DNA of 64,000 nucleotides, from the NCBI RefSeq assembly GCF_964355755.1, contig NC_092672.1, positions 2,852,001 through 2,916,000 of the forward strand. Direction: 5' to 3'. Below, in pieces: positions 4,454 through 64,000 of the stretch; the stretch's first letter is position 1, and the number at the start of each line of letters is the position of its first letter. Below the pieces are notes generated by a model, which saw only the letters and a list, made by a program, of their open reading frames with translations, was not told the origin of the DNA and did no database searches. Both the position numbers and the translations under genes were made by a program. The DNA comes from Antedon mediterranea (lineage: Eukaryota > Animalia > Echinodermata).

Positions 4454-5756
4454 TCCTAATTAAAGATGTATTGTCCCCCTGAAAAACTCTGAACACAATT
4501 TTGTTGAGTATGCCATTTTAATGTAACATAACAGTTATCTACTTCAATTAGCAAAAATTGGTCAAATTGGCTGCCAGCCAATGAGTTTTTGGTTGAATTT
4601 AACCATTTATTTTGTCATTTTATAAGTGAAAACATTTTTTTTTTCAGTTTTTTTTCTACTGAAGTGATTAACTACAAAATAACATATTAAAAGTGGTCTG
4701 ATTTAATTAATCTTCATTTTTAATGTTTTTGGGGGACAATATATCTTTAAGCCTACTAAAATGTACAAATGGCTTGAGCAACATGTTTTGGTATTAACTC
4801 TGGTTTTCAATAGAAATCATGTAACATAATCGCTTGCTGATTTCGTTGCCTTTGAGTTTTATATAATATATATTAATCATGATTTTGAATTATTTATACT
4901 GTTGACCTAATGTAAATTTATACTGTTATCCAATTGTTTTTTAGTTTTATTTACTATGTATAAGTTTTTTTTTTCTGTCAGACATTTTGTAATGTGTAAA
5001 GTGTATTTACTACTGACCTATTGTATCTGTATATTGATTGAATTGTTATACAAATGTTTTTTTTAAAGTATTTCATCAAGTGTACAATTACTACTGTACA
5101 TTGTATTAGGTTTTTTTTTTTTTTGTTCAATGTAAGTAAATTATGTAAGTTTAATCATCATTTACCTTTTATATGTTGTTGTGTATATTTGTATGGACGC
5201 ACCACTGAAAGGTGTGTACCACTGATTCGAAAGTGAGTACCAAGTCTTTAAGCTGGACACAAAATAGCTTAATATCTTTTTTGACACAATATAACAAAGA
5301 TAACACAAAATTCATATGACTATAACACATTATGTTATATAGATGTAAATACTTATAGCTTATCAAAAATACTGTAACAAACGGATTGGTCTGTTATAAA
5401 TGGTGCCAAATTATTTATTTGTTTTTTTATAATAAGTCTAAAGCTAGACATAAAATAGCTTAGTTTTTTAAAGGTTATTCGCGATACTAGCAAAGTATAG
5501 TACCATTTATTTTTTTATCACCAGAATAATTATGTATATACCGTATTTCTTGTACAAGAATATTTCTATAAGTTTAATCTAAATCATAGTGAATGGTATT
5601 TGACTCAATGCAGGTGCTTTGTAAAATGTGAATAGCATCTACAACAAAAATTCACTGTTTCAAAGCTTTTCAATTACAGCAAAATATATGTTGTAATGTT
5701 TGCATAGTCAACAAAATGAATAAAGGTTTGTGGTACATCATGTGTTTTTTGAAAAA

Positions 5757-7120
5757 ATAAGAAAGTTGAGAATACTGTATCTCTCAGATTCTGAGGAAAT
5801 CAGAAAGTTGAGAATACTGTATCTCTCAGATTCTGAGGAAATCAGAAAGTTGAGAATACTGTATCTCTCAGATTCTGAGGAAATCAGAAAGTTGAGAATA
5901 CTGTATATCTCAGATTCTGAGGAAATCAGAAAGTTGAGAATACTGTATATCTCAGATTCTGAGGAAATAAGAAAGTTGAGAATACTGTATCTCTCAGATT
6001 CTGAGGAAATCAGAAAGTTGAGAATACTGTATCTCTCAGATTCTGAGGAAATAAGAAAGTTGAGAATACTGTATCTCTCAGATTCTGAGGAAATCAGAAA
6101 GTTGAGAATACTGTATCTCTCAGATTCTGAGGAAATAAGAAAGTTGAGAATACTGTATCTCTCAGATTCTGAGGAAATAAGAAAGTTGAGAATACTGTAT
6201 CTCTCAGATTCTGAGGAAATAAGAAAGTTGAGAATACTGTATCTCTCAGATTCTGAGGAAATAAGAAAGTTGAGAATACTGTATCTCTCAGATTCTGAGG
6301 AAATCAGAAAGTTGAGAATACTGTATATCTCAGATTCTGAGGAAATAAGAAAGTTGAGAATACTGTATCTCTCAGATTCTGAGGAAATAAGAAAGTTGAG
6401 AATACTGTATCTCTCAGATTCTGAGGAAATAAGAAAGTTGAGAATACTGTATCTCTCAGATTCTGAGGAAATCAGAAAGTTGAGAATACTGTATCTCTCA
6501 GATTCTGAGGAAATAAGAAAGTTGAGAATACTGTATCTCTCAGATTCTGAGGAAATAAGAAAGTTGAGAATACTGTATCTCTCAGATTCTGAGGAAATCA
6601 GAAAGTTGAGAATACTGTATCTCTCAGATTCTGAGGAAATAAGAAAGTTGAGAATACTGTATCTCTCAGATTCTGAGGAAATAAGAAAGTTGAGAATACT
6701 GTATCTCTCAGATTCTGAGGAAATAAGAAAGTTGAGAATACTGTATCTCTCAGATTCTGAGGAAATAAGAAAGTTGAGAATACTGTATCTCTCAGATTCT
6801 GAGGAAATCAGAAAGTTGAGAATACTGTATCTCTCAGATTCTGAGGAAACAAGAAAGTTGAGAATACTGTATATCTCTCAGATTCTGAGGAAATCAGAAA
6901 GTTGAGAATACTGTATCTCTCAGATTCTGAGGAAATCAGAAAGTTGAGAATACTGTATCTCTCAGATTCTGAGGAAATCAGAAAGTTGAGAATACTGTAT
7001 CTCTCAGATTCTGAGGAAATCAGAAAGTTGAGAATACTGTATCTCTCAGATTCTGAGGAAATCAGAAAGTTGAGAATACTGTATCTCTCAGATTCTGAGG
7101 AAATCAGAAAGTTGAGAATA
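5757..7120. repeat. 42-bp minisatellite, ~32 near-identical copies (GAAAGTTGAGAATACTGTATCTCTCAGATTCTGAGGAAATMA)
   Basis: Directly visible; it generates ORFs 5730-6905 and 6902-7129. Confidence 0.97.
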
Positions 7121-8440: not shown

Positions 8441-11234
8441 ATGGCGACGCAGAAGTATCAGTGTATCTTTGTATTGTCATTATTTTATTTATTCAAGGGA
8501 TCTTACGGTGAGTCGAGTTTTACTGAAATCTAGTTATTTCTAATTTACAATAGAAAAGGCATGTATAATAATTAGTTAGCCGTCCAGCATAGTTATCGAT
8601 TTTGTGTAAATGTAGATCAGTATATAGGCAATGTAAACAAAATATTCAACGCCGCCGCCGATGGTAGGCCGAAACTAAGTGGTTTTTGTAGAAAATATAA
8701 TTTTTTTTCTTGTTTTAAACACACCGAATTACTCTTAAAGTTGTTTTGTTTATAGAAAACCATTATCGCAAGGACCTAAATCCACTTGAATGTCTACAGT
8801 AAGTAGGCCTAGTAGGCGCGGCATACTTAAACATTTGCGGGTCCGTAATCTCTAAATTCCTCTTAACGTCACTAAATATTAATTAGTCATATTTTACAGC
8901 TTCAATTATTTTGTAAAAGTTCTTATACAGTTACACAAAGTCATATAAATGAAGTTATGAACTAATGATTTAGGCGCGCATACACGCGCATACACACGCA
9001 TTTACATCAAGCTCTACAAGTTTATCAAACTAGTTTGGCAACAAAAGTTTGATGTGTCCAAATATGGTATTGATATGCCCAAATGTGGTAGTGATATGGA
9101 CATCATCATGTCCACATAGGTACATCACATTTATTGTCACATAAAGTTTGATAGTGTAGACAAGGCTTTATTCATTTTTCTTCTTTTTCTTTTTAGGAGT
9201 GTCAGATATTACCTATTCTGTAATGTCAACAAGCATTGGTTTTCTTTTAAGAAATGATCAAGCGTCGTTAGTGGAGGTATGGCTACTTTCATGGTTCATG
9301 TATTGACTCTATTAAAGTTGATAACGGCATTATATATTACTACTACTAGGAATGTGCTATTACTGCCATTTGCTTTCTCGAACCATGCTGTAACTTTATG
9401 TTTGAACAATGTGAAAGATTAAAAACCATAATGATATGCCTGTAAATAAAAGTAAAGTTTATAAACAAATATTTGGTTTTGGTCATTATGATAATATCAT
9501 TTCTAGACTTCAAGTCTGTATTTATCGTCTTTCTGTATGTTTTTTGTCTGGAAAGTAACAGCTCAAGTAGTATATGTATGAAACGCCATATATGCCAAAC
9601 ATTTATCTTTTTACTTATATTTTTAAGTCAAAACTCCGTCTGGGACCCAGACTAATCATTGTCATGATTTCTTCCAGATAACATACAGTGTTGACGCGTC
9701 GTCATCCGTCATCCTTATATTGCGTTTTCCTGTTGAAACATATTCAACATACACGATTAACAATCTGAAAGCGAATACACCCTACACGTTTAACATTACA
9801 ATGCGTGTACAAGGTGATGACGTAAACGAATCGGCCATTCGCCTAACTACTCTTGAATATGGTTCGGTAGACGATGACGAACGAGTACATGCAGGTACTG
9901 TAGTTTTGGTTGTCTGTGACGCTATAGAGGGCGCTACTTTGTTTTTGTTTGGCAGACAAATGTTTGTTGGTGACGATATAGAGGGCGCATTTGAAACTTG
10001 AAACTTATTGTGTGTAGATATATATTACATTATGTAATATGTAATTAATTTGTCTCTTGTGACCCACAGTCGGTTATGCTTCAAAGCCCAGAATGGTATT
10101 AAAGTCCTTATTTGACCAATACTTGTCCAATTTCCCTTCAAAAACGTTTACAGATGTTGCGTTTACTTAGTCATATGGCAATGTGTTCCAGTGATTCGGC
10201 ACTTCTATTTAAAACGTCAACTTAAAACTTTTTAATTAATTACTAAGTATTGTTAGGCTCTCTATTCTTTGTAGAGGGCCATATAAAAACTTGTATAGAA
10301 TAGTGATTAATTATTCTCAAGCTAAAAAAGTCTCAGTTACAAGCCCTTCTTCATTTGTCAGACATATTGTTTGTGTTAATATGCAATTTATTGTTTTCAT
10401 TTTCACTCACTGAGCATGGTTTGATATATGTATTCACTCATCATCCATCGTTTTTTTTTTGTTTTTTTTCTAGTATATCTTTACCTAACGATCGTCATAG
10501 GTACGATGTTTGGTATCTCACTCATCATCCTTTTTATCATGACATACACCGGATGCTGCTGCACACGGTATGTTTAATGTTTATGTTTAATCGTCGGTTA
10601 ATGGTATTGTAAATAGGACTGGCTATACGTCCAGCTGCTGTACGTATAACTATCTTTATCCTCGTCCATTGTAAATAGCCACATATAAATATCAGATCTC
10701 TAGTTAGTTTACCCCAGCTCATAAAGTGTTATCTATCTGCAATAAAGATAGGTCTAATTAATAAGACGTTGGTTCCTACTTGAGTAACGCAAGCACCCTA
10801 AACGCGACACAAGTATTTTGACCAATCATGGCGACACGATGGATCATCCGAAGTGTCTCTTGTGATTGGTGTTGTTGTGCCAATACGTCGATACGTCACC
10901 AACCAGCTTTCTACTAATAGCGAAAACGCGCGAATAGAAAAACCGGCAGCATGCGTATTTGTGATTTGGAAGATCGAAACACGAATACGCATGTGTATAG
11001 GCTGACGCTTTATATTTGCGCGAACAAATTCGATTAGTGGAAAATAAGATTAATTTGCATTTAACATTTTCTTTCAGCCAAAAGCCAAGGGCGCACAATG
11101 CAAAGTCGAGTAAATCAAGTATTGTACAACGAATGAGGAAACGGCAGAGGGATCGAGACAGACAACTTGATAATGTTCCAAGTGAAGATATCACCAATTA
11201 TACAAACAGTATTCCAGGATGGAACGCCAAATAA
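8441..11234 (+). CDS. Signal peptide + FN3 + TM + basic tail protein (paralog B). Exons 8441-8507, 9197-9276, 9678-9894, 10474-10567, 11078-11234
   Basis: Same exon number and phases (1,0,1,2) as paralog A. Shared motifs SDITYSV, ILRFPxETYSxYxINxL, YTFNI; TM YLTIVIGTMFGISLIILFIM followed by CCC. Confidence 0.85.
9010..9167. mobile_element. MITE family 1 (TIR AGCTCTGTCTACACTATCAAAC), PIF/Harbinger-like
   Basis: Other copies at ~7322-7348 and 21182-21225 (partial), 31120-31225, 31613-31691, 33983-34112, 42453-42586, 49390-49549, 54457-54583, 56362-56539, 56777-56922, 63512-63651, 63911-64000. Some copies are flanked by TTA on both sides. Confidence 0.88.
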
Positions 11235-17171: not shown

Positions 17172-20100
17172 TCATAAAACAAACTTGTCGAAATTTAAAT
17201 CTGTTTCTTGTAACTTGTCTTTGTATAGGTTGTTAAATATCTCATTTTGGGCTACAGTAAGTTGATTCTTCCAGTCTCCAACTTTTCCTACAAATAATAA
17301 CAATATAATATGTGTTAATGATAAATCACGTGCTATTTAATATTTTGGCCCATATTGAAGATACAAATAACTCGAGATTTTTTTATAAGTTTTGTAACCT
17401 CACTAATATATTACTTTTCCTAAAAATCATTAAATATCATTCTTACTGTTGGTATAATAGATATTTGGAAAGGAAAACAAAGTTTCCTGCAACCAAAAAC
17501 GTGCTTATACACAGAGCAGCAAGTAGTATACTTGGCAAATGGCATTTTGGCAAACCCTGTTTTACACCATTAATGCGTCACGTGTTATGGCAAGTAGACG
17601 CATGCGCATGCTTACCCTTTCTCATAAACTGCACAGTATTACCAGTGTCGCCATTAACCGTGTCTTTCATTAAATTCTGTGATTTATTTGCTTGTGGGTT
17701 TTTCTTCATTTTACCAAATGAACAATGATCTGCAATGCGTTCGATTGTTTCTTTATCTAAGTCTTTGCCCAGGAATTTGCTAACATCACTAACAACCTTA
17801 ACCAAATCCTGCAGTATGGAAAATACATGAATTAGAGACATTGTGAATTGACATTTTGTGGTAAATCGTTCTTACACCTCTAGTGGAAATGGAAGTTGGG
17901 ATAAATAAGTATAAGTATAAAGCATTTCAACAATAATTGTCATTTTTCTTTTTGTACATAAGTTGGGGACCCGTCATGAAACGTCACAAAATAAACATGA
18001 ATATTCATTTAGTCATGTCTATAAGGCGTGTGACGTAAGGATTGGCCCAACTACAATATTCTAATGCAAACGCTTTCCGTCGAGCCGTCTGTGTACTAGG
18101 GTCTATAAATGGACTTTACATTTCGATGTATGGGGTTCGAATCCCAACGAACTTATTTTTACATTATAATGACAGAATAATTTGTTTAGAGGGTTAGGTT
18201 TAGTTATATTTAGGAAGTAGTTCAGCTATCTTTCACAAGGATTGCACAACTTATGTACGAAAAAAAATCTGGGCCCGCGTCACACTCTCATTGAACAACG
18301 TAGTAATTTTTAATAATAGGTCAGTTGCCAGACACTGTACTAAATGAGCCGACGCAGAAAAACAACACAATTCAGTAAGAGTAAACGTTATACACATTTA
18401 AGATTGTCTAAGATTATATTAATTTAGATATAAGTAGGGTATCTGGAAGAAGGTAAGCTAAGTACATGTTCATAGTTTAAAACTGCAATATATGTCGTTT
18501 TGGTAGGGCTACTAGTAAGTAACTAAGATTTACAGCCAGCAAACGGCGATTATACGTGTACATGTTGATTTCACCTCGCGTCTTTTGTTTTCTGTCACCG
18601 TGTCTATTGTCTCCGTGTCTATTGTCACCGTGTCTATTGTCACCGTGTCTATTGTCTCGATTGTCTATTTTCTCGATTAAGTACCTTTTTATGCTTTACA
18701 TTCTTTCTTTGTATACAACGAGGGCCCTGAATGATCAGTTCTATTAGGAACTGGATAGGCTACCCTCAGTAAATATGGTAATAAACATTCTTTGCTTTTA
18801 AATGGCCGTTTTAGGTTTTTGAAAAAACACCGCAAGCTCCATAACAGAAGAAGAAGCATTTTTTTTCTGTATTTTCGATTTCGGAGTTATTCCTCTTTCC
18901 CGTTGTTTATTTTTACCGTACTTATTATGCTAGTCGGCACTGGGATTCGAACAAATGGGATTCGGCAGCTGGACTCTCGGAAAATTGGAATTTGGTACAC
19001 TTGGATTCGGCAAACTGGAGTCGTGGCAAATTGGAATTCGGTACACTTGGATTCGACAAATTGGAATTCGGTACACTTGGATTCGGCAACCCTTAGTCTA
19101 GTCCTAATTAAACAATAGCCATTAAGGCCTGTTTTACTACCTGTTTCATTTCTTCAAATGTAACAAACATAACGTGAGATTCGTGCCTCCTATTCCACCA
19201 GTATAGATTGTGATCAAACCAGGATCCCCATGGAACTAAATAAAAAAACAAAACAAAATGACAAGTTGTGAAATGTGTCGTGTGCATTAATAAAAGTATT
19301 ATAAAAAGGCGCATTTTGCTACAAGATGTCTACAACAATAACATTTTATAACAATTATTGTTTATTATTATTTAGTTCAATTTCATTTCATTTAGCATAA
19401 TGTGTTATTTGTGCAAATCTATTATAGTATTGACCAATATGGCGAGTCGGGCTAATTATGAAATTGTTACGGTGAAATTTGAATAATGTTATGTAGGCCT
19501 TATTCACAATACAATTATGCCTTATTCATAATAATATTAGGCCTTATTCACAATAATAATAGGCCCTATTCACAATAATATTAGGCCCTATTCACAATAA
19601 CATTAGGCCTTATTCATAATAATATTAGGCCTTATTCACAATCATATTAGGCCTTATTCACAATAATATTAGACCTTATTCACAATAATATTAGGCCTTA
19701 TTCACAATAATATTAGACCTTATTCACAATAATATTAGGCCTTATTCACAATCATATTAGGCCTTATTCACAATCATATTAAGCCTTATTCACAATCATA
19801 TTAGACCTTATTCACAATAATGTTAGGCCTTATTCACAATGCAATTAAGCCTTATATTCACAATGCAATTTAGCCTTATATTTACAATCATATTAGGCCT
19901 TATTCACAATCATATTAGGCCTTATTCACAATCATATTAGGCCTTATTCACAATAATATTAATTAGGCCTTATTCTTATATCTAAATATAACTTTTAATC
20001 CGTGAGTTATTTCACACTTCCATGCATATAACTGAACTTGCTTTAACAACAAATCCCGTAAGTAGTTCTTTGTAACTCGCAGTTAAGGTTCATCAGACTG

Positions 20101-47659: not shown

Positions 47660-48573
47660 TCAAGAGTAACACGCAACGGTTCTTGTAATGGTTCTTCGAA
47701 AACCCTCTCGAAACGCTTTCAACATAAAATTATAAATAATGGGATTTATTGACAAACTTAAAATGCTTGTAACTTCTGCAAATGTTCTAAATATATTCAT
47801 AGGGTAATTTGTAGGTTTATACCCAACGTGAATCGCCATATATAACAACATTGGCGACCAGCATACGAAAAAGCCAATCACCACTGTCATCGTAGTCTTT
47901 ATAGTTTTACGCAGCGACGTTCTCGCTCTCCACTTGGCATATTTTCATCTTTAACTTTTTCCGAAATAGAAAATATTTTTCTGTAAATCACTGCAATAGT
48001 ACAAAATGTCAATACGATACCGCAAATTCTCATTACTTCGTAAACACGGTACGCTGAATAGCTGTATGTTTGACAAACGCTTGGATGGCTGCAATCCTGA
48101 TCTTCCTCCAGGCCACCGAATAGGAGCACGAGACCCCAAATCACTCCGATTGTCCACGAAAAAATACCTACATAAACCGCGTAAATAAGACGCGCATGCT
48201 TTTTGTATTTATACGGATATGAAATGGCAAAAAATCTATCAAGTGTGATAAAAAATAGATGCCATACTGAAACTGGACAGCAGATATACAATGGGATGTA
48301 CCAGATATCTCCCTTTAAAGCAGTGTCGCTAAAACTTGTTCTGGAATATATATTAACGTATACAGCCAGCGGTACACCAATAATCGATGATAAAAAGTCC
48401 GAACACGTCAGGCTCGCGAGAAGTATTAAAATGACTAATAAGTTACCAAAAGCTCCAACAAATGCGAATAAAGATGTTAGTCCACAACAATTGAATAACA
48501 TATAGTAATAAAAACTGTCCGATTCAATTTCTTTCGTGCGTTTTTCCTCCATTATCCTTTCAAAATAAAACAT
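47660..48573 (-). pseudogene. Intronless rhodopsin-like (class A) GPCR with a frameshift before TM6 and an apparent ICL1 deletion
   Basis: GNLLV, LTCSD, TLDRFFAI, CWSP and NPIIY motifs are split over two ORFs. The frame changes at ~47900-47945 (the second frame reads RKTIKTTMTVVIGFFVCWSP). TM1 runs directly into TM2. Confidence 0.8.
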
Positions 48574-52261: not shown

Positions 52262-52428
52262 CAGTGGCGTAACGCAGAGGCCCCTGGATTAGGAACCATA
52301 AGGAGTCCTCCAACGCTAGATGTTTTTAGCCTTTTTCGACATATTTTAATGCCTGTTTTTTCCTCTGGGCACACTCATAAGCCCCTGGGTTTAGCCAGTG
52401 AGCGTTCATAGACGTTACACACACACTG
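52262..52428. mobile_element. hAT-like MITE remnant upstream of the GPCR ATG
   Basis: Starts CAGTGGCGTAAC, ends GTTACAC..CACTG, with GGCCCC motifs inside. Confidence 0.45.
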
Positions 52429-52463
52429 CGTTTGGACGAAGCTGCGGTGTAACCCTCTCTACA

Positions 52464-53369
52464 ATGTCTACTACGTCCACTACAGTTTTCGATTCTTCAA
52501 ATTCTACGACTAAACCGCCCGTCGAACACGTTTGGTACAGTACCTGCGGAGACTATATACATCTGTATATCCTGACAATAGGTTATGCTATTTGTTCGAT
52601 AATAAACTTATTATTTTTGCTAACAATCGCGAGATCTTCACAGCTTCATACAAAAACAAACGTATTCGTATCAAGCTCAACTATTTCCCGAATTATTTGC
52701 TCAGTTATGGGCTGGATGTACATAGGACTGTTTTTATCAAGCGCAATACTATTTGATTTTCAGATTGTTGTTTTATGGGAAAATATGGTGACTATAGAAA
52801 TAGTTCATATTATAACAATTGCGTTAGACAGATACCTAGCGGTGTTTAAGCCCGTGTTGTATATTAGAATCAACCCAATTCACTATAGACGCATTTGCTA
52901 TGCACTGTGGCTTGGAATGGCGGCAAACATGTTGTTGGGAATATATTACGAAGAAACTGGACTCGTTACAATGTGCTCCTTGGGTTTAATTACTATAATA
53001 CCGTCTAGTATTATATATGGTCTCGTCTACAAAACGTTGATCAAAAAAGAAAAACTGTGTACGGAACAAAGTAGGAAGACACGACTTATAAAATCACGCA
53101 AAGTTTCACTGACATTATGTCTGGCTGTTACGACAAACATGTGTTTCCTTTTTCCGTATGTCGTTTATATCATCGTTGCCGCCGTTATATCTTCATCGCT
53201 CGATTATAAAGATCATTATTCGATTATATATATGTGTTACACGGATTGGTTTTTAATTATGTATTTGGTATGCACGCCTATTGTATTTTGGATACGTTTA
53301 CCGGTATACCGCAACTGTACAAAAAACGTATTACGTTGTAGACAACGAAGTTTAACGGTTAACCCTTAA
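52464..53369 (+). CDS. Intronless divergent class A GPCR (~301 aa)
   Basis: Seven hydrophobic segments, Ser/Thr-rich N-terminus with NST sequon, LHTKTNVFV in ICL1, IALDRYLAVFKP, CFLFPY in TM6. First ATG is at 52464. Confidence 0.9.
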   Translation: MSTTSTTVFDSSNSTTKPPVEHVWYSTCGDYIHLYILTIGYAICSIINLLFLLTIARSSQLHTKTNVFVSSSTISRIICSVMGWMYIGLFLSSAILFDFQIVVLWENMVTIEIVHIITIALDRYLAVFKPVLYIRINPIHYRRICYALWLGMAANMLLGIYYEETGLVTMCSLGLITIIPSSIIYGLVYKTLIKKEKLCTEQSRKTRLIKSRKVSLTLCLAVTTNMCFLFPYVVYIIVAAVISSSLDYKDHYSIIYMCYTDWFLIMYLVCTPIVFWIRLPVYRNCTKNVLRCRQRSLTVNP

Positions 53370-55031
53370 AGCGTGTTCCCACTAGAACGCAACGCAACGA
53401 CGTATTGACGCAAAGTGCTGTATTTCGTAATCACAAGTGGGAACCGACGACGCAACAGTGATGCAAACATCGCAGGTTTGATTTCACGCAGGCGGGGGCA
53501 AACACAATTACTGGAAGGGCATTTTCTTACATTGCGTCGATTGCGTTACGCTGCGTCGCTAGTGGGAACCAAGCTTTAAAGCTTGACGCCACCAGAGACG
53601 CAACCGCGTTCGCCAACTGTTGCGGCGTTTTGTTATGTCGCGAATTTTTTAACGACAAATTACTATCTATAAAGCACCTTAATACAAAAATCGGTTATAC
53701 AAATAGTTTAACATAAAATGCATTTAATTACCGTACTTTAGATATTAAACATTAATTACAATTGGATCTGACCTCTTCGATAATTTAAAATCTGATTCTA
53801 GTACAAATGGTGTAAACATTTAATTATCCTTAATATCAACATACATTTTAGTACTGTACTAGTCAGTATTAAACATCGTAGTATTTACTTTAAACTTGAT
53901 TGTCAGTATTGGTATTGAGCTAAATCATAAATCATAGAAATAAGCTTGGTTCCCAATTAAAAAAAACAATGCAATGATGTAAGCGCGCCACGTACAATTT
54001 GACCAATCACACCGCGGTGAACAACTGAACTGTCGCTTGTGATTGGTCAACTCACTTGAGTTGTGCCTACGTCATTGCGTTGCGTCCATGTATAAACCAA
54101 GCTTTATAAAGAACAGAAATTCATAGTATTTTGACCAAAAGAAACAATGGTTTGGTCAAATTTATAATAGAGTTGAAATTTCTTTTAGAAAAAATTATAG
54201 AGCATATTATTAAAAATAAGCAGAAACCATATTGTGGTATTTTTTCTTCATGGTATTATACTACCATATTGATCACATTTTAAAGTGAAACAGAATGAAT
54301 TTAATAATTTTGTTCAATGTTGGGGAAACAGTTTAAAGTGGTTTTCTTACAAAAGTGGCACAATAATACCATGGAATGAGGAAATTGGCTCAACATACTG
54401 TAGGCTTATCAACACTTTTACAACATGCACAGTCAATTTAGTGAACACAATCTTTAAGCTCTGTCTTCACTATCAAACTTTGTGACAAAAAAATGCGATG
54501 TGCCCATATATGGACATGATGATGTCATATCGTTACCATATTTGGGCACATCACACTTTTTTTGTTTGATAGCGCAGAGAGCTTTAGATTTTGTTACTAC
54601 AATTTAGAAACATAGAAATTGCACACGTAATAGTGATAAATAAAGCCCATGATTGGGTCATCATAATATATACAGGACACACACACACACAGTCAGCCAG
54701 GCTGGACACCTTATGAGCCGGCACCCGGTTAGCTTCAAACTCAACAAGACCTCTGCAGAGACTGATATTTATAGGTCACAAAGTGTGATTTGAGGCCTAG
54801 AAAAATTGTCTACATAAATCCTACTTTTAAGCTAATATTTAGAAAAAAGATATTAGAAACCGTAATATTATATTGAATCTTACTGAAATTTATCCCTAAT
54901 TATTAATAAAAATGTTATCACACTACTTAACAAATACTGTGTATTATCAAGCTAACCAGGTGCCACCCATAACTACAAATATATTTTCAATTTAGCATTA
55001 CAAATTTAATAAATAAATCGACAGCCTGTTG

Positions 55032-58000
55032 TCAATGCCGATGCGTGCTATCCCTACTCCAGCTGCGACTGTATCGTGTGAGTGAGGGCGTCCTGCTGCT
55101 ACGTGAGCGACTGGTATATGAATAGTAAGAACTGTCAGATCCTGAGGGGCTTGTGACTGGTCTCGAGTATGGTATTGGACGTTTTCTGGCACTGCGAACA
55201 AAAATGATAAATTAGGTGTTAGAACATACAGATTGTGAACTTTATACAAAATCACATATGCCTACTGTAATTTCTGGAAATACTTTTACTTTTTATCATA
55301 TTCTCTTTTAAATAATGTACAAGTAATATGATTTGGCCTTTATTTGTTGTTGCTGTTGCTACTAGATTTTATGGTACTAATCTCACTGCAATACTGTATA
55401 CATTAATAACTAATACATATGCTACTTTAGCGGTTAAAGCCTGTTTTCCTGTCGACGTTATTCGACGCTATCGTCGTTGATAGTTAACAGTTCAACGACG
55501 ATCGTTTGAAAACGATCAAGTTGAAATGATAACGATAGCGAGTACCTTTTCCTGTAAATCGTTACCATTTCAATGTTTACGTAGAAGATCGCCGATTATT
55601 GTTAACGATAGCGTTGAATAACGTCGACAGGAAAACAGGCTTAATGAATCAATTTTACCTAAAAAATTCCCTATATTCAACTAAACATGCTCTATGTTAG
55701 TTAATTCTATACTTTATATTAGTAGTGTGTAAATAGAGAGATAGCTGAATTATTGATTGTGAAATTTAAAAAAAATTAGTTTATCTATATATTTCTGAAT
55801 AATAGACAGGCATTCAGTATTATTCAACCAATAATTTATAAAATATTAAAAAAATTAACATTGTTAATAGTAAATTATAAATGTGTTATTCAGATTGTTA
55901 GCAAAATAATACACCAGTAAAATTAGTATTAAAAGCATGATTTTAAACTGATTGTAGTAGCATTGACAACAAAACAATAAGTAAAGTTATTAGTATGATA
56001 ATTGTTAGTTATTAAACATGATAATCTGTAAAAACAGTGAAATGCGTTATTTGATTAAATACATAAAAAAAAAGAACTCGGAAACGCTGAAATGATGATT
56101 AAATGTTAATAGATAATACTCTAAAAAAACAATATGTGATGAGATCAGTCTTTTACATAAGTAGCAGAATAAGAATGATCAGATTGTTTTCAACAAATTG
56201 GAATTGAAAATGTAATACATTAACATTTAGTAAGTGAAGCATAGGAATTGATTAAAGGTACAGGGCGACAGGTACAGGGCGACAGAACAAGCGGATAGAA
56301 GGGCGTCCGTCATGAATTTAACACAATAGACTGATTTGATATTTTATTGAAACATTAGTAAAGCTCTATCAACACTACACTAGTTTTAAGTGTGATATGG
56401 CCGAATATGGTAGTGATATTCCTAAATATGGTAGTGATATTCCTAAATATGGTAGTGATATTCCTAAATATAGTAGTGATGTGACACAGGTCACAACACA
56501 TTATTTTGTCACATAAAGTTTGATAGTGTAGACAGAGCCTTAGCTTCTAGATTGTATATAATTGGGAGTATTTAACTTGGGATGACATATGACCTCAACT
56601 CAAACACACAATAAATTAATGTGATGTCACAGGTCGTAGGTCATCCCAAATCACTAAAATCCTTAATAAAACAAACACTTCAAATATTCTGTCTAAAGTT
56701 ATTAATAAACAAAGCAGAAGATTCAAACAAAACATCACAAATACAAACTCTACAAGCTCAAACATAACATCTCTTAAGCTCTGTCTACACTATCAACTAG
56801 TTTGACAAAAAAGTGTGATGTGCTCAAATAGGGTAATGATATGCCCAAATATGGTAATGATATGACATAATCATATCCATATATGGGCAAATCACATAAA
56901 GTTTGATAGTGTAGACAAAGCTTTAGTTAAAGATTGTTATACATAATGAACACATTTCATTGCATACAATATGAAAACAGACAGTACACTATATTACAGT
57001 AAAATAAAACAAATAATCACAATACAGTATAATACCAACAGAGAAACAACACAGTATATCAATAGCGTTGTACAATACCACCATGATCACAAATACTACA
57101 TTTTAAAGTAAAATGAAAACGTTCATGTAAAGAATGGAAGACATTAGCAAGATAGATAGATGTAAACCATTGATCGCAAACTTTACAGATCAATTAAATA
57201 GCAATCAATTTTTCTCTCAATCTATCAATCAATCATCAACCAATCAAGGATCTAATTACACCACACAAAAATTAACGAGGATCGCTAACACTTACTGCGC
57301 AATCAGTGTTCTAATTAGCCACATGGCCATGTGGCTGCTTGATTAATGAAGCTATTATTATGACTGGTGAGCATGTACAGATGTTATGCTCTCCTTCTTT
57401 GTAGTATGTTTTGCATATTGAAAGTTCCACGACAACATAAAAAATGAGTAATGCAATTTGTTTGAAATAAAAAAAGCCAATATAAACAAAGCAATATATA
57501 GAGATATGAAACGGACTAAATAAAATGATTGATGCAACATGGAAAACACCAAAAAATGTGGAAGAGAGAGCAACGTTAACAACACCCAAAAGTATGTTTA
57601 AAAAGCTACAAAAAAGCAAGATGCAATAACAAATACAAAGAAGCCACAGATCCCATGCAAAAAAACAAAATTATATTCCATTCTAATGCAATTCAAAGTC
57701 TATTCCATGGCATGCATGTAATAGTACAGCAACTATTTAGTTATAGGGACAATGTCAAAATTGTTCTACTTCACTTACTACTGTACATTTTACTCTTTAA
57801 GGCCAGTTTACACAGACGAGCGGTAACGGTAAGAAAAAAAAAAGAATCTATTCCTAATGACTATTTATACACAACGCGAAGCAGATATGCGGTATCTGCT
57901 CAGGATACAGATTCTACGTGGGACAAGCTACTCGGTTTTCCGCTTACTATTACTGCGTATCTGTGTAAACTGGTCATTCAATTATTAAGGCAGCTTTTCT

Positions 58001-61000
58001 TGGTAAACATACACACTGTATATGCAGTTCTGCAAAAACTAAAATCATGTTTTTCTAGTTGAAATAATATAGAATAATTTTGACATGATCACTAATAATT
58101 TAATATGAAAACTCATTCTACACGGCAACGTCATCTAGCAATGTTTTAACGACGTGTGATAATCTGTGCCATTCCATACTGGCACCCTGTGTAATGTATT
58201 AACATGGGTTTGCTGTTGTGAAACCATATCATATTGTCATGCTCAGCTGATGTTCACATGAGATGTTTTTTTATGAATCAAAATTACGTCAAGAACACAC
58301 AATGTATTGTGCTATCATAATAGGTATGGAATGTGAACTGAAGGTAATTGCACCAATTTTAGTGTACCTACAGTAATACCAATTGTCGTAATAATTAAAC
58401 GATAAGGGTTTAATAACACAAGACAAAGATAATGGCTGTATTAAGGAAAATTATCACTTTTATATGTTGTTATTCGAAAATGTTTTCTCAATGGAGAGAA
58501 CTTCTCTTAGATTAATTGTTTGCTATTAATTTGTTTAATTTTGCTGTTTAAATTTGTTTATGAAAATCAAATTCCTTTTAATTCTGAAACAATATCAATC
58601 AATCAATCAATCAGACTTATATAGCGCCGGTATCCATAAAGGTGCTAAACAAAGTTAAACAGGAAATTAGATATGAATTGAATTTGAATTAGATTTGGTT
58701 AATGTGTTGACCTATAGGAACAATAAGCTTATAGGGTTCTAGATCCAAGGAGATGGGTCATATATATTACTGAGTACAATATTTGCAAGTTTAATATTCA
58801 TTTAAGAAAACCAAGAAAACGATAAAATTAATAAGAAATAAATTGTCAGGACTACTGCAGCGTATGTTATATTTCTAAAAGCGGGTAGTGAAATGCATTG
58901 TTGGTAATCTAGTGTCCGACTTAGACCTTAGTGAATAAATTAGAATATGTGTTAGTAAACAACAATATCAAGCTATGACAAATAGTAAATTTCACAGATA
59001 ACAATATTATTAATGTAAATGTTGTATCTAAAATCAATATTTCAGATGCAAAGTCAACCTTTGATTTGGAATATTTGCAGATTATATATATATTACTTTT
59101 CTTTCTTGTTATACTATTTTTTTGGAAATTAAAATGGTTTATTAAAAAAAGTAAAAAAAAAATATAGTTTCTCATATGGATAGCTGACAGATAGATAGCT
59201 ACAGTTGTAGGTACCAACATTAGGTGCCACAGTCCTTTATACAAGCATAGGAAAATAAATGTTGATTGAATATAAAACAAAGCATTGTCACTGGGATGTT
59301 TTAGAATTGTGTCTATTGCTTATCATCATCTAATTATTAATCTTTGCTCATTCAATTTCTTATTAATGATTGACAGATGACAATACAAGATGATGGCAAA
59401 GAAGACGATAGTTCATTAAACATTGACTGCACAATTTATTGATTGTTATTATTATCTGTGTTTAACAATTTGTTTCACTATAGCTTGAAATTGTTATATA
59501 TGTTATATATATATATTTATATATCTTCTACATTAGTGGAACAAAGAGAAAGGGTTTTGAGGGACAATATGCAAATTGATGTTAGAGAGAAATATGGTGA
59601 CATTAGCGAGAAATTTGATGACATTAGGGAGAAATTTGATTACATTAGAGAGAAATTTGATGACAGCGAGAAATGTACAAAGGAACTTCTCAGTAAATAA
59701 TCAATGTAGAGATATATACATATATATTTTAAAACATAGCCTTATATGTAGCTGAATGTGAGATTGCATTTAGATGCTTAAAACAAGCTGTCATACACAC
59801 TGATGCGATGGCTCAACGTCTGTAGTAGTCCCGGTTCTCTTCACGGTGATCCCTGCGATCGGGAGAATGATGGCGATCTCGATGATCACGAGATGAGTAA
59901 TCTCGTGAGGAGTGCACATGGCTACGGTGCTCACGACCCCTATATCTGTCAGGTGATCTTGAAAAAATGGTTTGCAAAAATACATTTATATGCATATATA
60001 TTATTCACAATTGTTTACCAAACATTGATAAAATAAAAGTATATCTACCATCGAATTAATCTTTTCATTCACCAATTCCCAATATTTTGGGGTTGATAGA
60101 ATTAAAAGATTATCACCATGACTACTAAATGATAATTACATGATAAAAATATTAAAAATCATAAATTTATTGCAACATTAAAACTTAAAAAGCCATTATA
60201 AAATTTCCACCATGACAAAATGATTTCCCAAAAAATATAATTCAACATATCATGCTTAAAAATGGCGGACTCATGCATTCGATAATGAATAAAAACACGA
60301 ACAAAAATTTGCTTATATTTAAATTTAACTATCAACATTTAAAGAAGACTGCCTTACAACACAAACATTGAACAAGTTTAAGTTGTGCTTTCATCTTTAT
60401 ACACTGCAAGTATACGTTACCATATATTGCCTTCATCCTTATTTTTCTGAAAGCAGATACTTGGGAAAAATCAATTTGTTTATATATTTATCAACATCTT
60501 TTCAGATGTGATCTGTACCTTGTTATTCTACGGGCATCTAAAAAGCTGGGCGAGTCCCGTCGTTTGCGGATTGGAGACCACTGCTTGCCGTTTTCTTTGC
60601 TGTTACTACGTGAATGCCTTCGTTTTTCCTTGTCTTGTGAGTATGATCTTGAACGACGATAAGTTGGGCTGAAGAAGAAAACAAACTTTAATTAAATATA
60701 ACAAGATAAGTAGTAAGCGCAATAATTTTTATATATTTCAGGTGATGATATTTTTTTGGGATAGAGTTACTTGTGGTAAACTGCATTCACAGTTGAATAC
60801 AGTTATTAATGGTTAACATAAAAATCACTGAACAAAAACTTTTTGAACTCTTCAATTCCAGAAATTTAAAGACTGTATTATTTCGTTATTTCATAATAGA
60901 ATGATACACATACCTATTGCTTCTAGAACGAGAGAAGCTTCTGGACTTTGAACGTCTACTGGGGCTATCAGAATGTCCGCGAGACCTGTAAATAATAATT

Positions 61001-62715
61001 AAACACAGGTAAAAAAGATTTAATTCAAATACAGAACAAAATAAATCAAAGCATTTTATTACCATAGAAACTACTGACCTATGCTTCTTGCGAGGTGTAT
61101 GACTACGACTATGTGATCGGCTTGACTCGGACGAGTAATCGGACACGGGTGAACGGGATTTGTGCTTTCTTCTCCTCTCATCAGATTTGTTGTAATCATG
61201 ATGCTCCTTTCTGCGGGATCTTTTGGATGACTGCGATTTTTGATGATCGGAAGTGTGGTCTACCTCGTGGGCAGAATCAGCGGCAGATTCAGACTCGTCA
61301 TCGTTTCTATGATGTTTTCTAAAGATACAATAAACAACAACAAATTATACATTTGATTGATTGTATCTGAATATAATATATTAAACACCTCAGATAAATA
61401 TATAGCAGTAAGTGTCTATGTTGAATACAGCAAGTGTCGAAGTTGAATATAGTAAGTGTCTAAGTTGAATATAGTAAGTGTCTAAGTTGAATATAGTAAG
61501 TGTCTAAGTTGAATACATGTGTCTAAGTTGAATACAGTAAGTGTCTAAGTTGAATACAGTAAGTGTCTAAGTTGAATTCAGTAAGTGTCTAAGTTGAATA
61601 CAGTAAGTGTCTAAGTTGAATACAGTAAGTGTCTAAGTTGAATACAGTAAGTGTCTAAGTTGGATACAGTAAGTGTCTAAGTTGGATACAGTAAGTGTCT
61701 AAGTTGAATACAGTAAGTGTCTAAGTTGAATACAGTAAGTGTCTAAGTTGAATACAGTAAGTGTCTAAGTTGAATACAGTAAGTGTCTAAGTTGAATACA
61801 GTAAGTGTCTAAGTTGAATACAGTAAGTGTCTAAGTTGAATACAGTAAGTGTCTAAGTTGAATACAGTAAGTGTCTAAGTTGAATACAGTAAGTGTCTAA
61901 GTTGAATACAGTAAGTGTCTAAGTTGGATACAGTAAGTGTCTAAGTTGAATACAGTAAGTGTCTAAGTTGAATACAGTAAGTGTCTAAGTTGAATACAGT
62001 AAGTGTCTAAGTTGAATACAGTAAGTGTCTAAGTTGAATACAGTAAGTGTCTAAGTTGAATACAGTAAGTGTCTAAGTTGAATACAGTAAGTATCTAAGT
62101 TGAATACAGTAAGTGTCTAAGTTGAATACAGAAAGTGTCTAAGTTGAATACAGTAAGTTGGTAAGTTGAATACAGTAAGTGTCTAAGTTGAATACAGTAA
62201 GTGTCTAAGTTGAATACAGTAAGTGTCTAAGTTGATTACAGAAAGTGTCTAAGTTACTCATGTTATTTAAATTATTTATATATTCATCGAGCAGATACTA
62301 GTATTTGATTGAATGCTCACATGTAAACAATACATTTAAATATTCTCTTTGAAACAATTATTTCCATTTTGCCATAACAATTTTATATCTTAATTCACTG
62401 ATTTTTACACAAACTGATCACATGAAATAAAAAAAAATACTAGTGCTTGAATTTTAAAGTAAAAATATATCCATCCATCATTTTAAAAGTATAAATAATC
62501 ATTTTTGTAAAAGTAAATGTTTTCCACTGACGCCAAAGAAATGTGATGCTTGTAGGCGACTGTTTTGGAAATTGCTTGAAGGAATTTACATAATGACGTG
62601 CAAGTTTATTAGGAATTTGAGAATTCATTTAATCAGCATTCATTAAATTATGAAATGTCAAGTGTATTAATGTTCTTACCTTCTATGGCTTCTATGCTTT
62701 TTACTTCTATGTGAT
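55032..62715 (-). CDS. Srrm234: 3' part of Srrm2/3/4-family (Srrm234) splicing factor, eMIC-containing isoform. Exons 62715-62680, 61318-61079, 60985-60914, 60668-60519, distal terminal exon 55191-55032; 5' part lies beyond the window
   Basis: RS-rich phase 2-2 exons. The spliced junction reads RKRRDSPSFLDARRIT|SARKRPIPYSRP, matching the SRRM3/SRRM4 eMIC signature as I recall it (RRRDSPSHLEARRITSARKRPIPYYRP). Confidence 0.92.
55438..55641. mobile_element. Near-palindromic 204-bp MITE with TAA target duplication
   Basis: AGCCTGTTTTCCTGTCGACGTTATTCGACGCTATCGT...ACGATAGCGTTGAATAACGTCGACAGGAAAACAGGCT, TAA on both sides. Confidence 0.9.
58594..58650 (-). mobile_element. 3' tail of an L2-like LINE/SINE
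   Basis: On -: GGCGCTATATAAGTC followed by (TGAT)n. A similar tail is on + at ~45783-45845. Confidence 0.5.
59813..59957 (-). CDS. Srrm234: Proximal alternative terminal exon of Srrm234 (eMIC-truncating isoform)
   Basis: Acceptor TTTTTCAAG is phase-compatible with the 60519 donor. Reads (R)SPDRYRGREHRSHVHSSRDYSSRDHRDRHHSPDRRDHREENRDYYRR*. Confidence 0.82.
61405..62256. repeat. 22-bp minisatellite (CAGTAAGTGTCTAAGTTGAATA), ~38 copies, intronic
   Basis: Directly visible. Confidence 0.97.
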
Positions 62716-63510: not shown

Positions 63511-64000
63511 AACCTTTGTCTACACATCAAACTATGTTGACAAAAAAAGTGTGATGTGCCCAAATATGGTAGTGATATGACATCATCACGCTCATATATG
63601 GGCACATCACATTTTTTTTGTCGCATAAAGTTTGATAGTGTAGACAGAGCTTTAGAGGATCAAAAATAAGTAGAGTGACCTATAAATAATAATAATTTAT
63701 TATGAATTTGGAAGACTGGCTTACTGTATATACCAGAGTGGGCTTATATTTGAAATATAAAAAGGATGGGCCTATACCTGGGTCAGTAAAGTAATAAAGA
63801 AAGTGAGATGAGTTTAATGCCCAGGGGGGGGGGGGGACCCATCAAAAACAAACACACATACATAGAATACAGTTAGAATAGAAATACCAAATACCAAAAA
63901 CCATAGATAAAGCTCTGTCTACACTATCAAACTTTATGCGACAAAAAAATGTGATGTGCCCATATGGACATGATGATGTCATATCACTACCACATTTGGG

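What the first reader, a model, noticed from the sequence alone, without database searches (positions are those of the whole stretch)
55032..60668. Srrm234 with a split eMIC domain switched by alternative terminal exons
Seen: exon 60668-60519 ends ...RKRRDSPSFLDARRIT in phase 2 and can splice in frame to two terminal exons. The proximal one (59957-59813) is RD/RH-rich and truncates the motif. The distal one, ~4.6 kb further (55191-55032), begins SARKRPIPYSRP and completes it. Known: this motif is the eMIC domain of vertebrate SRRM3/SRRM4 that drives neural microexon inclusion; in amphioxus and Drosophila it is supplied by an alternative last exon of the single Srrm234 gene. Inference: this animal has a regulated, probably neural, microexon programme. 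The ORF track misses the distal exon in the correct frame, so automatic annotation could too.
Basis: partly seen in the sequence, partly recalled or inferred. Interest (0 to 1): 0.85.

Follow-up and report, generated by a model that had tools for sequence, protein, structure and literature searches.

The report
Feather star microexon-regulator stop-exon switch
This feather-star splicing-factor gene makes its microexon-activating domain whole only when a stop-carrying middle exon is skipped, a switch already described in flies that likely confines the active form to nerve cells here too, so it is real but a known kind.

Summary
The window holds the 3' end of Srrm234 of the crinoid Antedon mediterranea. 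The eMIC/SRRM_C domain is split by a phase-2 intron: exon 60668-60519 covers Pfam positions 13-55 of 67, the protein with the distal exon covers 1-67, and 55191 is the best of 2,945 downstream acceptors. Contigs of one RNA-like run show 60519>55191, 60519>59957 and, unexpectedly, 59801>55191. The 'proximal terminal exon' is thus used as a 157-nt internal exon with a stop 12 nt before its donor, so both forms share the last exon, like fly isoforms G and C/F. Use as a true terminal exon was not seen. RefSeq already annotates the eMIC form, as 'uncharacterized'. A fish-like srrm4 locus has the same intron. Neural bias, regulator and microexon activity are inferred from flies, untested here. The scan noted this switch earlier in an arthropod.

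The parts
62680..62715 (-). 36-nt coding exon of Srrm234 (upstream, H/R/S-rich)
61079..61318 (-). coding exon, RS-rich
   Evidence: spliced contig record 6 in X1, joint 60982/61076 cut +3
60914..60985 (-). coding exon, RS-rich
60519..60668 (-). exon with the first part of eMIC/SRRM_C; common phase-2 donor after 60519
   Evidence: PF15230 33.6 bits, profile 13-55 of 67; joints to 59957 and 55191
59974..59976 (-). UGC at -19 of the stop-exon acceptor (role untested; chance about 0.16)
59801..59957 (-). 157-nt alternative internal exon: R/D/H-rich tail, stop TGA 59815-59813, 12 nt to a weak donor TCA|GTGTGT
   Evidence: one 217-nt contig in X1 = 30 + 157 + 30 with GT-AG joints on both sides
59435..59440 (-). 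AATAAA 360 nt behind the stop exon: candidate proximal poly(A) signal, use not seen
   Evidence: 1 found, 1.03 expected in shuffles
55032..55191 (-). coding part of the shared last exon; completes eMIC only when joined directly to 60519
53552..55031 (-). 3' UTR of the last exon (likely; end not known)
   Evidence: three X1 contigs of depth 241-359 cover 53552-54051, 54029-54470 and 54553-55191; they are separate contigs

Best explanation
This is the 3' end of the crinoid Srrm234 gene, in which skipping a 157-nt stop-carrying exon yields the full eMIC domain and including it yields an eMIC-less protein, and skipping likely happens mainly in neurons to switch on microexon splicing. Shown: the domain is split at a phase-2 intron; RNA-like contigs hold both the skipped and the included form, both ending in the same last exon. 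Inferred: the included form is likely a stable protein rather than decay substrate, because its stop lies only 12 nt before the last junction (50-55 nt rule, recalled); it would keep cwf21 and RS regions and so act as the general SRRM2-type spliceosome factor, with an R/D-rich tail that may favour nuclear speckles. [quoted passage not shown]
For: Domain split and completion. Three GT-AG joints around the exon in X1, while contigs of X2-X4 run unspliced across these places (records 10, 15, 19, 23, 27, 31). The X1 last-exon contig ends exactly at 55191, not 2 nt further, as expected if a path ending in ...CA also enters there. RefSeq proteins carry the skip junction. The exon's donor matches the U1 consensus at 4 of 9 places against 7, 7 and 5 for three neighbours. 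Fly Srrm234 has the same design: poison-exon isoform G, skip isoforms C/F, neural bias, Elav/Fne dependence. eMIC core differs from the commonest vertebrate form at 1 of 11 residues after the junction.
Against: The inclusion form rests on one contig of one run of unknown tissue, whose RNA status is a guess of the tool; the three joints have 29-30 letters on the short side, just under the tool's 31-letter rule for bridging. The skip contig is about as deep as the inclusion contig (76.7 against 91.2), which does not look like a rare neuron-only form, although contig depth is no isoform ratio. Elav-type motifs are not enriched beyond the window's own range (6.7 per kb against 1.1-8.2), nor Rbfox, Nova or PTB motifs. 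No protein with the R/D tail was found. No tissue data and no microexon target were examined.
Confidence: 0.7

Rival explanations
1. One reading: the proximal exon is mainly a true terminal exon with its own poly(A) site (fly isoform A type), and the onward splice is a side product.
For: Weak donor and an AATAAA at 59440; the fly exon is used both ways; other tissues or stages were not seen.
Against: In X1 the whole exon lies in one contig joined to 55191 at depth 91.2, while sequence behind it (59531-59697) has depth 8.1, within the 6-18 of other intron pieces. The AATAAA count equals chance.
Confidence: 0.12
2. The switch is real but not neural: the eMIC form is broadly made in this crinoid, and the exon tunes its dose by tissue or stage.
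For: Similar depth of skip and inclusion contigs; all 4 RefSeq isoforms seen carry eMIC; the sea urchin and sea cucumber representatives found also carry it; no Elav motif excess.
Against: Those proteins were found by searching for eMIC, so the set is biased. In flies eMIC outside neurons is harmful and the review literature gives neural restriction as the ancestral state. X1's tissue is unknown.
Confidence: 0.13
3. The included form is a decay-coupled poison transcript that lowers Srrm234 output, not a working protein.
For: No matching protein found (weak); no similar exon in the 2.1 kb held behind the same donor in an echinoderm-like locus.
Against: The stop is 12 nt from the last junction; the exon is open for 47 codons with an R/D-rich, splicing-factor-like make-up; its contig is as deep as the skip contig.
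Confidence: 0.05

Closest known systems
Drosophila Srrm234 3' end, isoforms A/G versus C/F (10.1101/2021.02.24.432780 = PMC8797185)
   Same: [quoted passage not shown]
   Different: Only the G-like and C-like forms were seen here; an A-like terminal use was not. Neural bias and Elav/Fne control are shown in flies, untested here. Homology of the two proximal exons was not tested.
Vertebrate SRRM3/SRRM4 (PF15230 SRRM_C)
   Same: Near-identical eMIC core; a fish-like srrm4 locus has the intron at the same place and phase (L002).
   Different: Vertebrates restrict eMIC by transcription of dedicated paralogues; the 627-nt L002 intron shows no comparable charged in-frame exon. Mouse and zebrafish Srrm4 have their own 16-nt truncating microexon.
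Human SRRM2/SRm300 and yeast Cwc21
   Same: N-terminal cwf21 region, E 3.6e-50 to SRRM2 in spliceosome structures.
   Different: SRRM2 lacks eMIC; the stop-exon isoform here would be its functional counterpart.
Sea urchin XP_003726265.1 and sea cucumber XP_071849279.1
   Same: Full SRRM_C match in annotated echinoderm proteins.
   Different: They have LP in place of RP in the distal part and RRRIT before the junction; their exon structure was not available.

Membership tests
Srrm234 (SRRM2/3/4 pro-orthologue) | N-terminal cwf21 domain | tested here: met
   PF08312 54.3 bits on P0001; these exons lie outside the window, linked through the RefSeq protein
Srrm234 (SRRM2/3/4 pro-orthologue) | C-terminal eMIC/SRRM_C domain, complete in one isoform | tested here: met
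   PF15230 51.5 bits, profile 1-67 of 67
Srrm234 (SRRM2/3/4 pro-orthologue) | Single-copy gene in the genome | not testable with these tools
   no genome held
Invertebrate eMIC 3'-end switch (fly type) | eMIC split over two exons with a common donor | tested here: met
   fly methods passage
Invertebrate eMIC 3'-end switch (fly type) | Proximal exon used as poison exon; eMIC needs its skipping | tested here: met
   joints 60519>59957, 59801>55191 and 60519>55191 in one run
Invertebrate eMIC 3'-end switch (fly type) | Proximal exon also used as terminal exon with its own poly(A) site | tested here: inconclusive
   no sign in X1; contigs cannot show ends
Invertebrate eMIC 3'-end switch (fly type) | eMIC isoform biased to neural tissue | not testable with these tools
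   one RNA-like run of unknown tissue
Invertebrate eMIC 3'-end switch (fly type) | Control by ELAV/Hu proteins | tested here: inconclusive
   UUUNUUU exceeds shuffles (31 against 12.07) but not the window's own range
eMIC microexon activators | Promotes microexon inclusion when expressed in non-neural cells | not testable with these tools
   needs a cell assay

The most novel reading that the evidence does not exclude
In crinoids the eMIC switch has no poly(A) arm at all: it is a pure cassette whose inclusion swaps the eMIC end for a stable R/D mixed-charge tail, and, through the UGC at -19 of its weak acceptor, the eMIC protein itself promotes that inclusion, giving a self-limiting loop that allows eMIC well outside neurons.
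Probability: 0.1. Interest if true: 0.6.

Novelty: new member of a known kind. Interest (0 to 1): 0.3.

Why it matters
It places the fly-type poison-exon design of the eMIC switch in a crinoid, a deuterostome with a radial nervous system, and shows that the intron splitting eMIC sits at the same place in a crinoid, an echinoderm-like and a fish-like locus. That fits an ancestral bilaterian switch, which the literature already proposes. Practically, one RT-PCR across 60519-55191 (two bands 157 nt apart) would report eMIC state by tissue in Antedon, and the RefSeq 'uncharacterized protein' can be named Srrm234. It opens no new mechanism.

Tried and rejected
Whole genome: none held. RNA holders on record: none listed; one run guessed as RNA. 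The 2019 paper that defined eMIC is not held; its figures and supplements may already include echinoderm sequences. The search of 1.84 billion representatives never ran, nor the atlas search, so eMIC-less tails in other invertebrates remain unsurveyed. Protein search with the stop-exon peptide: 0 of 5 candidates scored (weak). Metagenome scan with the single exon: 0 of 595 stretches confirmed; with an alignment 2 of 38. L001 ends 2.1 kb behind the donor with neither distal exon nor a charged in-frame exon among 10 candidates: inconclusive. Motif counts for Rbfox, Nova, PTB, MBNL and poly(A) signals did not clearly exceed shuffles around the stop exon; ACTAAY did so weakly in the long intron (9 against 4.26, 10 of 300 shuffles; one of 80 tests). 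Elav motif excess rejected by the window control. Intron read-through (9 residues, then stop) and an in-frame acceptor at 55185 had no joint among the 15 of 17 rows shown. Parts of the introns without cover reflect the 98% filter and were not used.

Full report
Observation. Exon 60668-60519 ends in ...DSPSFLDARRIT plus AG before a GT donor. Joined to 59957 the split codon is Arg, followed by 47 residues (14 R, 7 D, 7 H, 7 S) and a stop at 59815-59813. Joined to 55191 it is Ser, followed by ARKRPIPYSRP and an RS-rich tail to the stop at 55032.

Identity. The exon peptide matched one protein, P0001, at 100%: a RefSeq 'uncharacterized protein' of the crinoid Antedon mediterranea. Its isoform P0004 maps to five exons of the window. 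P0001 carries cwf21 (54.3 bits) and SRRM_C (51.5 bits, profile 1-67 of 67) and matches human SRRM2 at E 3.6e-50. It is Srrm234. A zebrafish preprint defines eMIC by this Pfam family (10.1101/2024.11.29.626094, passages). The upstream exon alone covers profile positions 13-55; the distal and proximal exons alone match no family.

Chance control. With a profile from 119 non-crinoid proteins, the exon alone scored 43.6 bits, the distal join 79.5, the proximal join 42.9 and intron read-through 45.3. Among 2,945 AG acceptors downstream, 55191 ranked first (80.4; mean 45.5, SD 2.0), an in-frame site 6 nt inside the same exon second (65.3), and 59957 ranked 2,574th. Of 125 stored proteins 123 hold the RIT motif; after it 78 read SARKRPIPYYR, 39 ...YFR, 4 (the crinoid isoforms) ...YSR, and 2 echinoderm variants differ more. 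That set was found by searching for eMIC and is biased to it.

RNA. Five runs hold the stretch, none on record as RNA, one (X1) guessed so. Four of the five were laid. Contigs of X2-X4 (one sample) run unspliced across 55191, 59801, 59957 and 60519. X1, laid alone at 98% likeness, gave five GT-AG joints among the 15 of 17 rows shown: 61079>60985 and 60914>60668 (depth 135.4), 60519>55191 (76.7), 60519>59957 (91.2) and 59801>55191 (91.2); the other ten rows lie in repeats. The last two joints belong to one 217-nt contig, 30 + 157 + 30 letters. So the proximal exon is 59957-59801, carries its stop 12 nt before a donor TCA|GTGTGT, and splices on to the distal exon. Limits: the three joints have 29-30 letters on the short side, under the tool's 31-letter rule; the inclusion form rests on one contig of one run; depths are no isoform ratio; contigs cannot show 3' ends. 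In support, the last-exon contig stops exactly at 55191, which fits a third incoming path not ending in AG, and RefSeq proteins hold the skip junction independently. Sequence behind the stop exon has depth 8.1, like other intron pieces (6-18), so terminal use was not seen.

Annotation. The cluster has 5 members: four Antedon isoforms (X1, X3, X4, X5), all ending in the eMIC tail, and one unrelated 45-residue peptide. The worry that annotation misses the distal exon is thus refuted. No protein with the proximal tail was found (0 of 5 candidates; weak). Isoform X2 is absent from the cluster; whether it is the stop-exon form is unknown.

Related loci. An alignment scan of metagenome contigs gave 2 loci of 38 stretches. 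L002, fish srrm4-like by sequence, has the intron at the same place and phase, 627 nt long, with no charged in-frame exon among 2 candidates; L001, echinoderm-like, has the same donor but ends 2.1 kb later. The split is therefore old and is itself no sign of regulation; the regulated element is the exon inside the intron.

Mechanism. Shown: two spliced forms sharing the last exon, one with full eMIC and one without. Inferred: the included form likely escapes nonsense-mediated decay (stop 12 nt from the last junction; the 50-55 nt rule is recalled) and serves as the general SRRM2-type factor; its R/D tail resembles the arginine-rich mixed-charge domains that target speckles (10.1101/771592, abstract). 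The exon's donor is weak (4 of 9 against 7, 7 and 5; a fifth donor was mis-set by one base in that script and is left out) and its acceptor is AAG, as suits a regulated exon. Inferred from flies: neuronal ELAV/Hu proteins cause skipping. Sequence gives no support of its own for that: UUUNUUU exceeds shuffles in the long intron (31 against 12.07) but lies within the window's range (6.7 per kb; 1.1-8.2 in 20 control stretches). A UGC at -19 of the stop-exon acceptor is the only one among six acceptors checked, but 79 of 487 pyrimidine-rich AG sites in the window have one too.

What is known. In Drosophila the proximal exon is either terminal (isoform A) or a poison exon spliced to the distal exon (G); eMIC needs skipping (C/F), is biased to brain and eye, and depends on Elav/Fne (10.1101/2021.02.24.432780, abstract, sections 3 and 5 and passages; PMC8797185, passages). 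A review gives the neural distal isoform of a single gene as the ancestral bilaterian state (PMC10551640, passages); another dates eMIC to early bilaterians (PMC12992808, passages). Amphioxus Srrm234 is an efficient activator in human cells (10.1101/2024.09.17.613571, passages). The 2019 source paper was not available, so its species list and supplements were not seen. Searches for echinoderm cases showed no dedicated paper in their listings (one search listed 15 of 2,911, none with Srrm234), which does not show that none exists.

Verdict. Real feature, known kind, new taxon, with a corrected anatomy: a stop-carrying cassette rather than two terminal exons. Interest 0.3.

Noticed in passing
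window 52395-53369 (+): Single-ORF rhodopsin-family receptor (7tm_1, 40.7 bits) converging on the Srrm234 3' UTR, whose X1 contigs reach 53552, under 200 nt from the receptor's stop; the UTRs may overlap.
   Followed up: partly
window 48603-47660 (-): Second 7tm_1 receptor split over two overlapping frames near 47900-47944 (profile 20-203 and 196-260): frameshift, pseudogene or assembly error.
   Followed up: partly
window about 42100-38800 and 30600-28250 (-): Two tandem matrix metalloproteinase genes (Peptidase_M10 and hemopexin exons).
   Followed up: partly
window 17578-17871 (-) and 9627-10001 (+): Sulfotransferase exon and a weak fibronectin type III match.
   Followed up: no
upstream of the window, P0004 residues 194-202 and 225-236: RefSeq isoforms differ by optional 9-residue (27 nt) and 12-residue (36 nt) segments; the 27-nt one could be a microexon in the regulator's own gene or an alternative splice site.
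   Followed up: no
window 55185 (-): In-frame second AG 6 nt inside the last exon would drop two eMIC residues; no RNA joint seen.
   Followed up: partly
window 62260-61420, 63500-63000, 5700-7100: Long tandem repeats, two of them in Srrm234 introns; a dispersed high-copy element recurs near 54500, 56500, 56850 and 63600-64000.
   Followed up: no
P0011: The sea cucumber isoform has SRRM_C but no cwf21 match and an N-terminus that looks out of frame: probably an annotation artefact.
   Followed up: no
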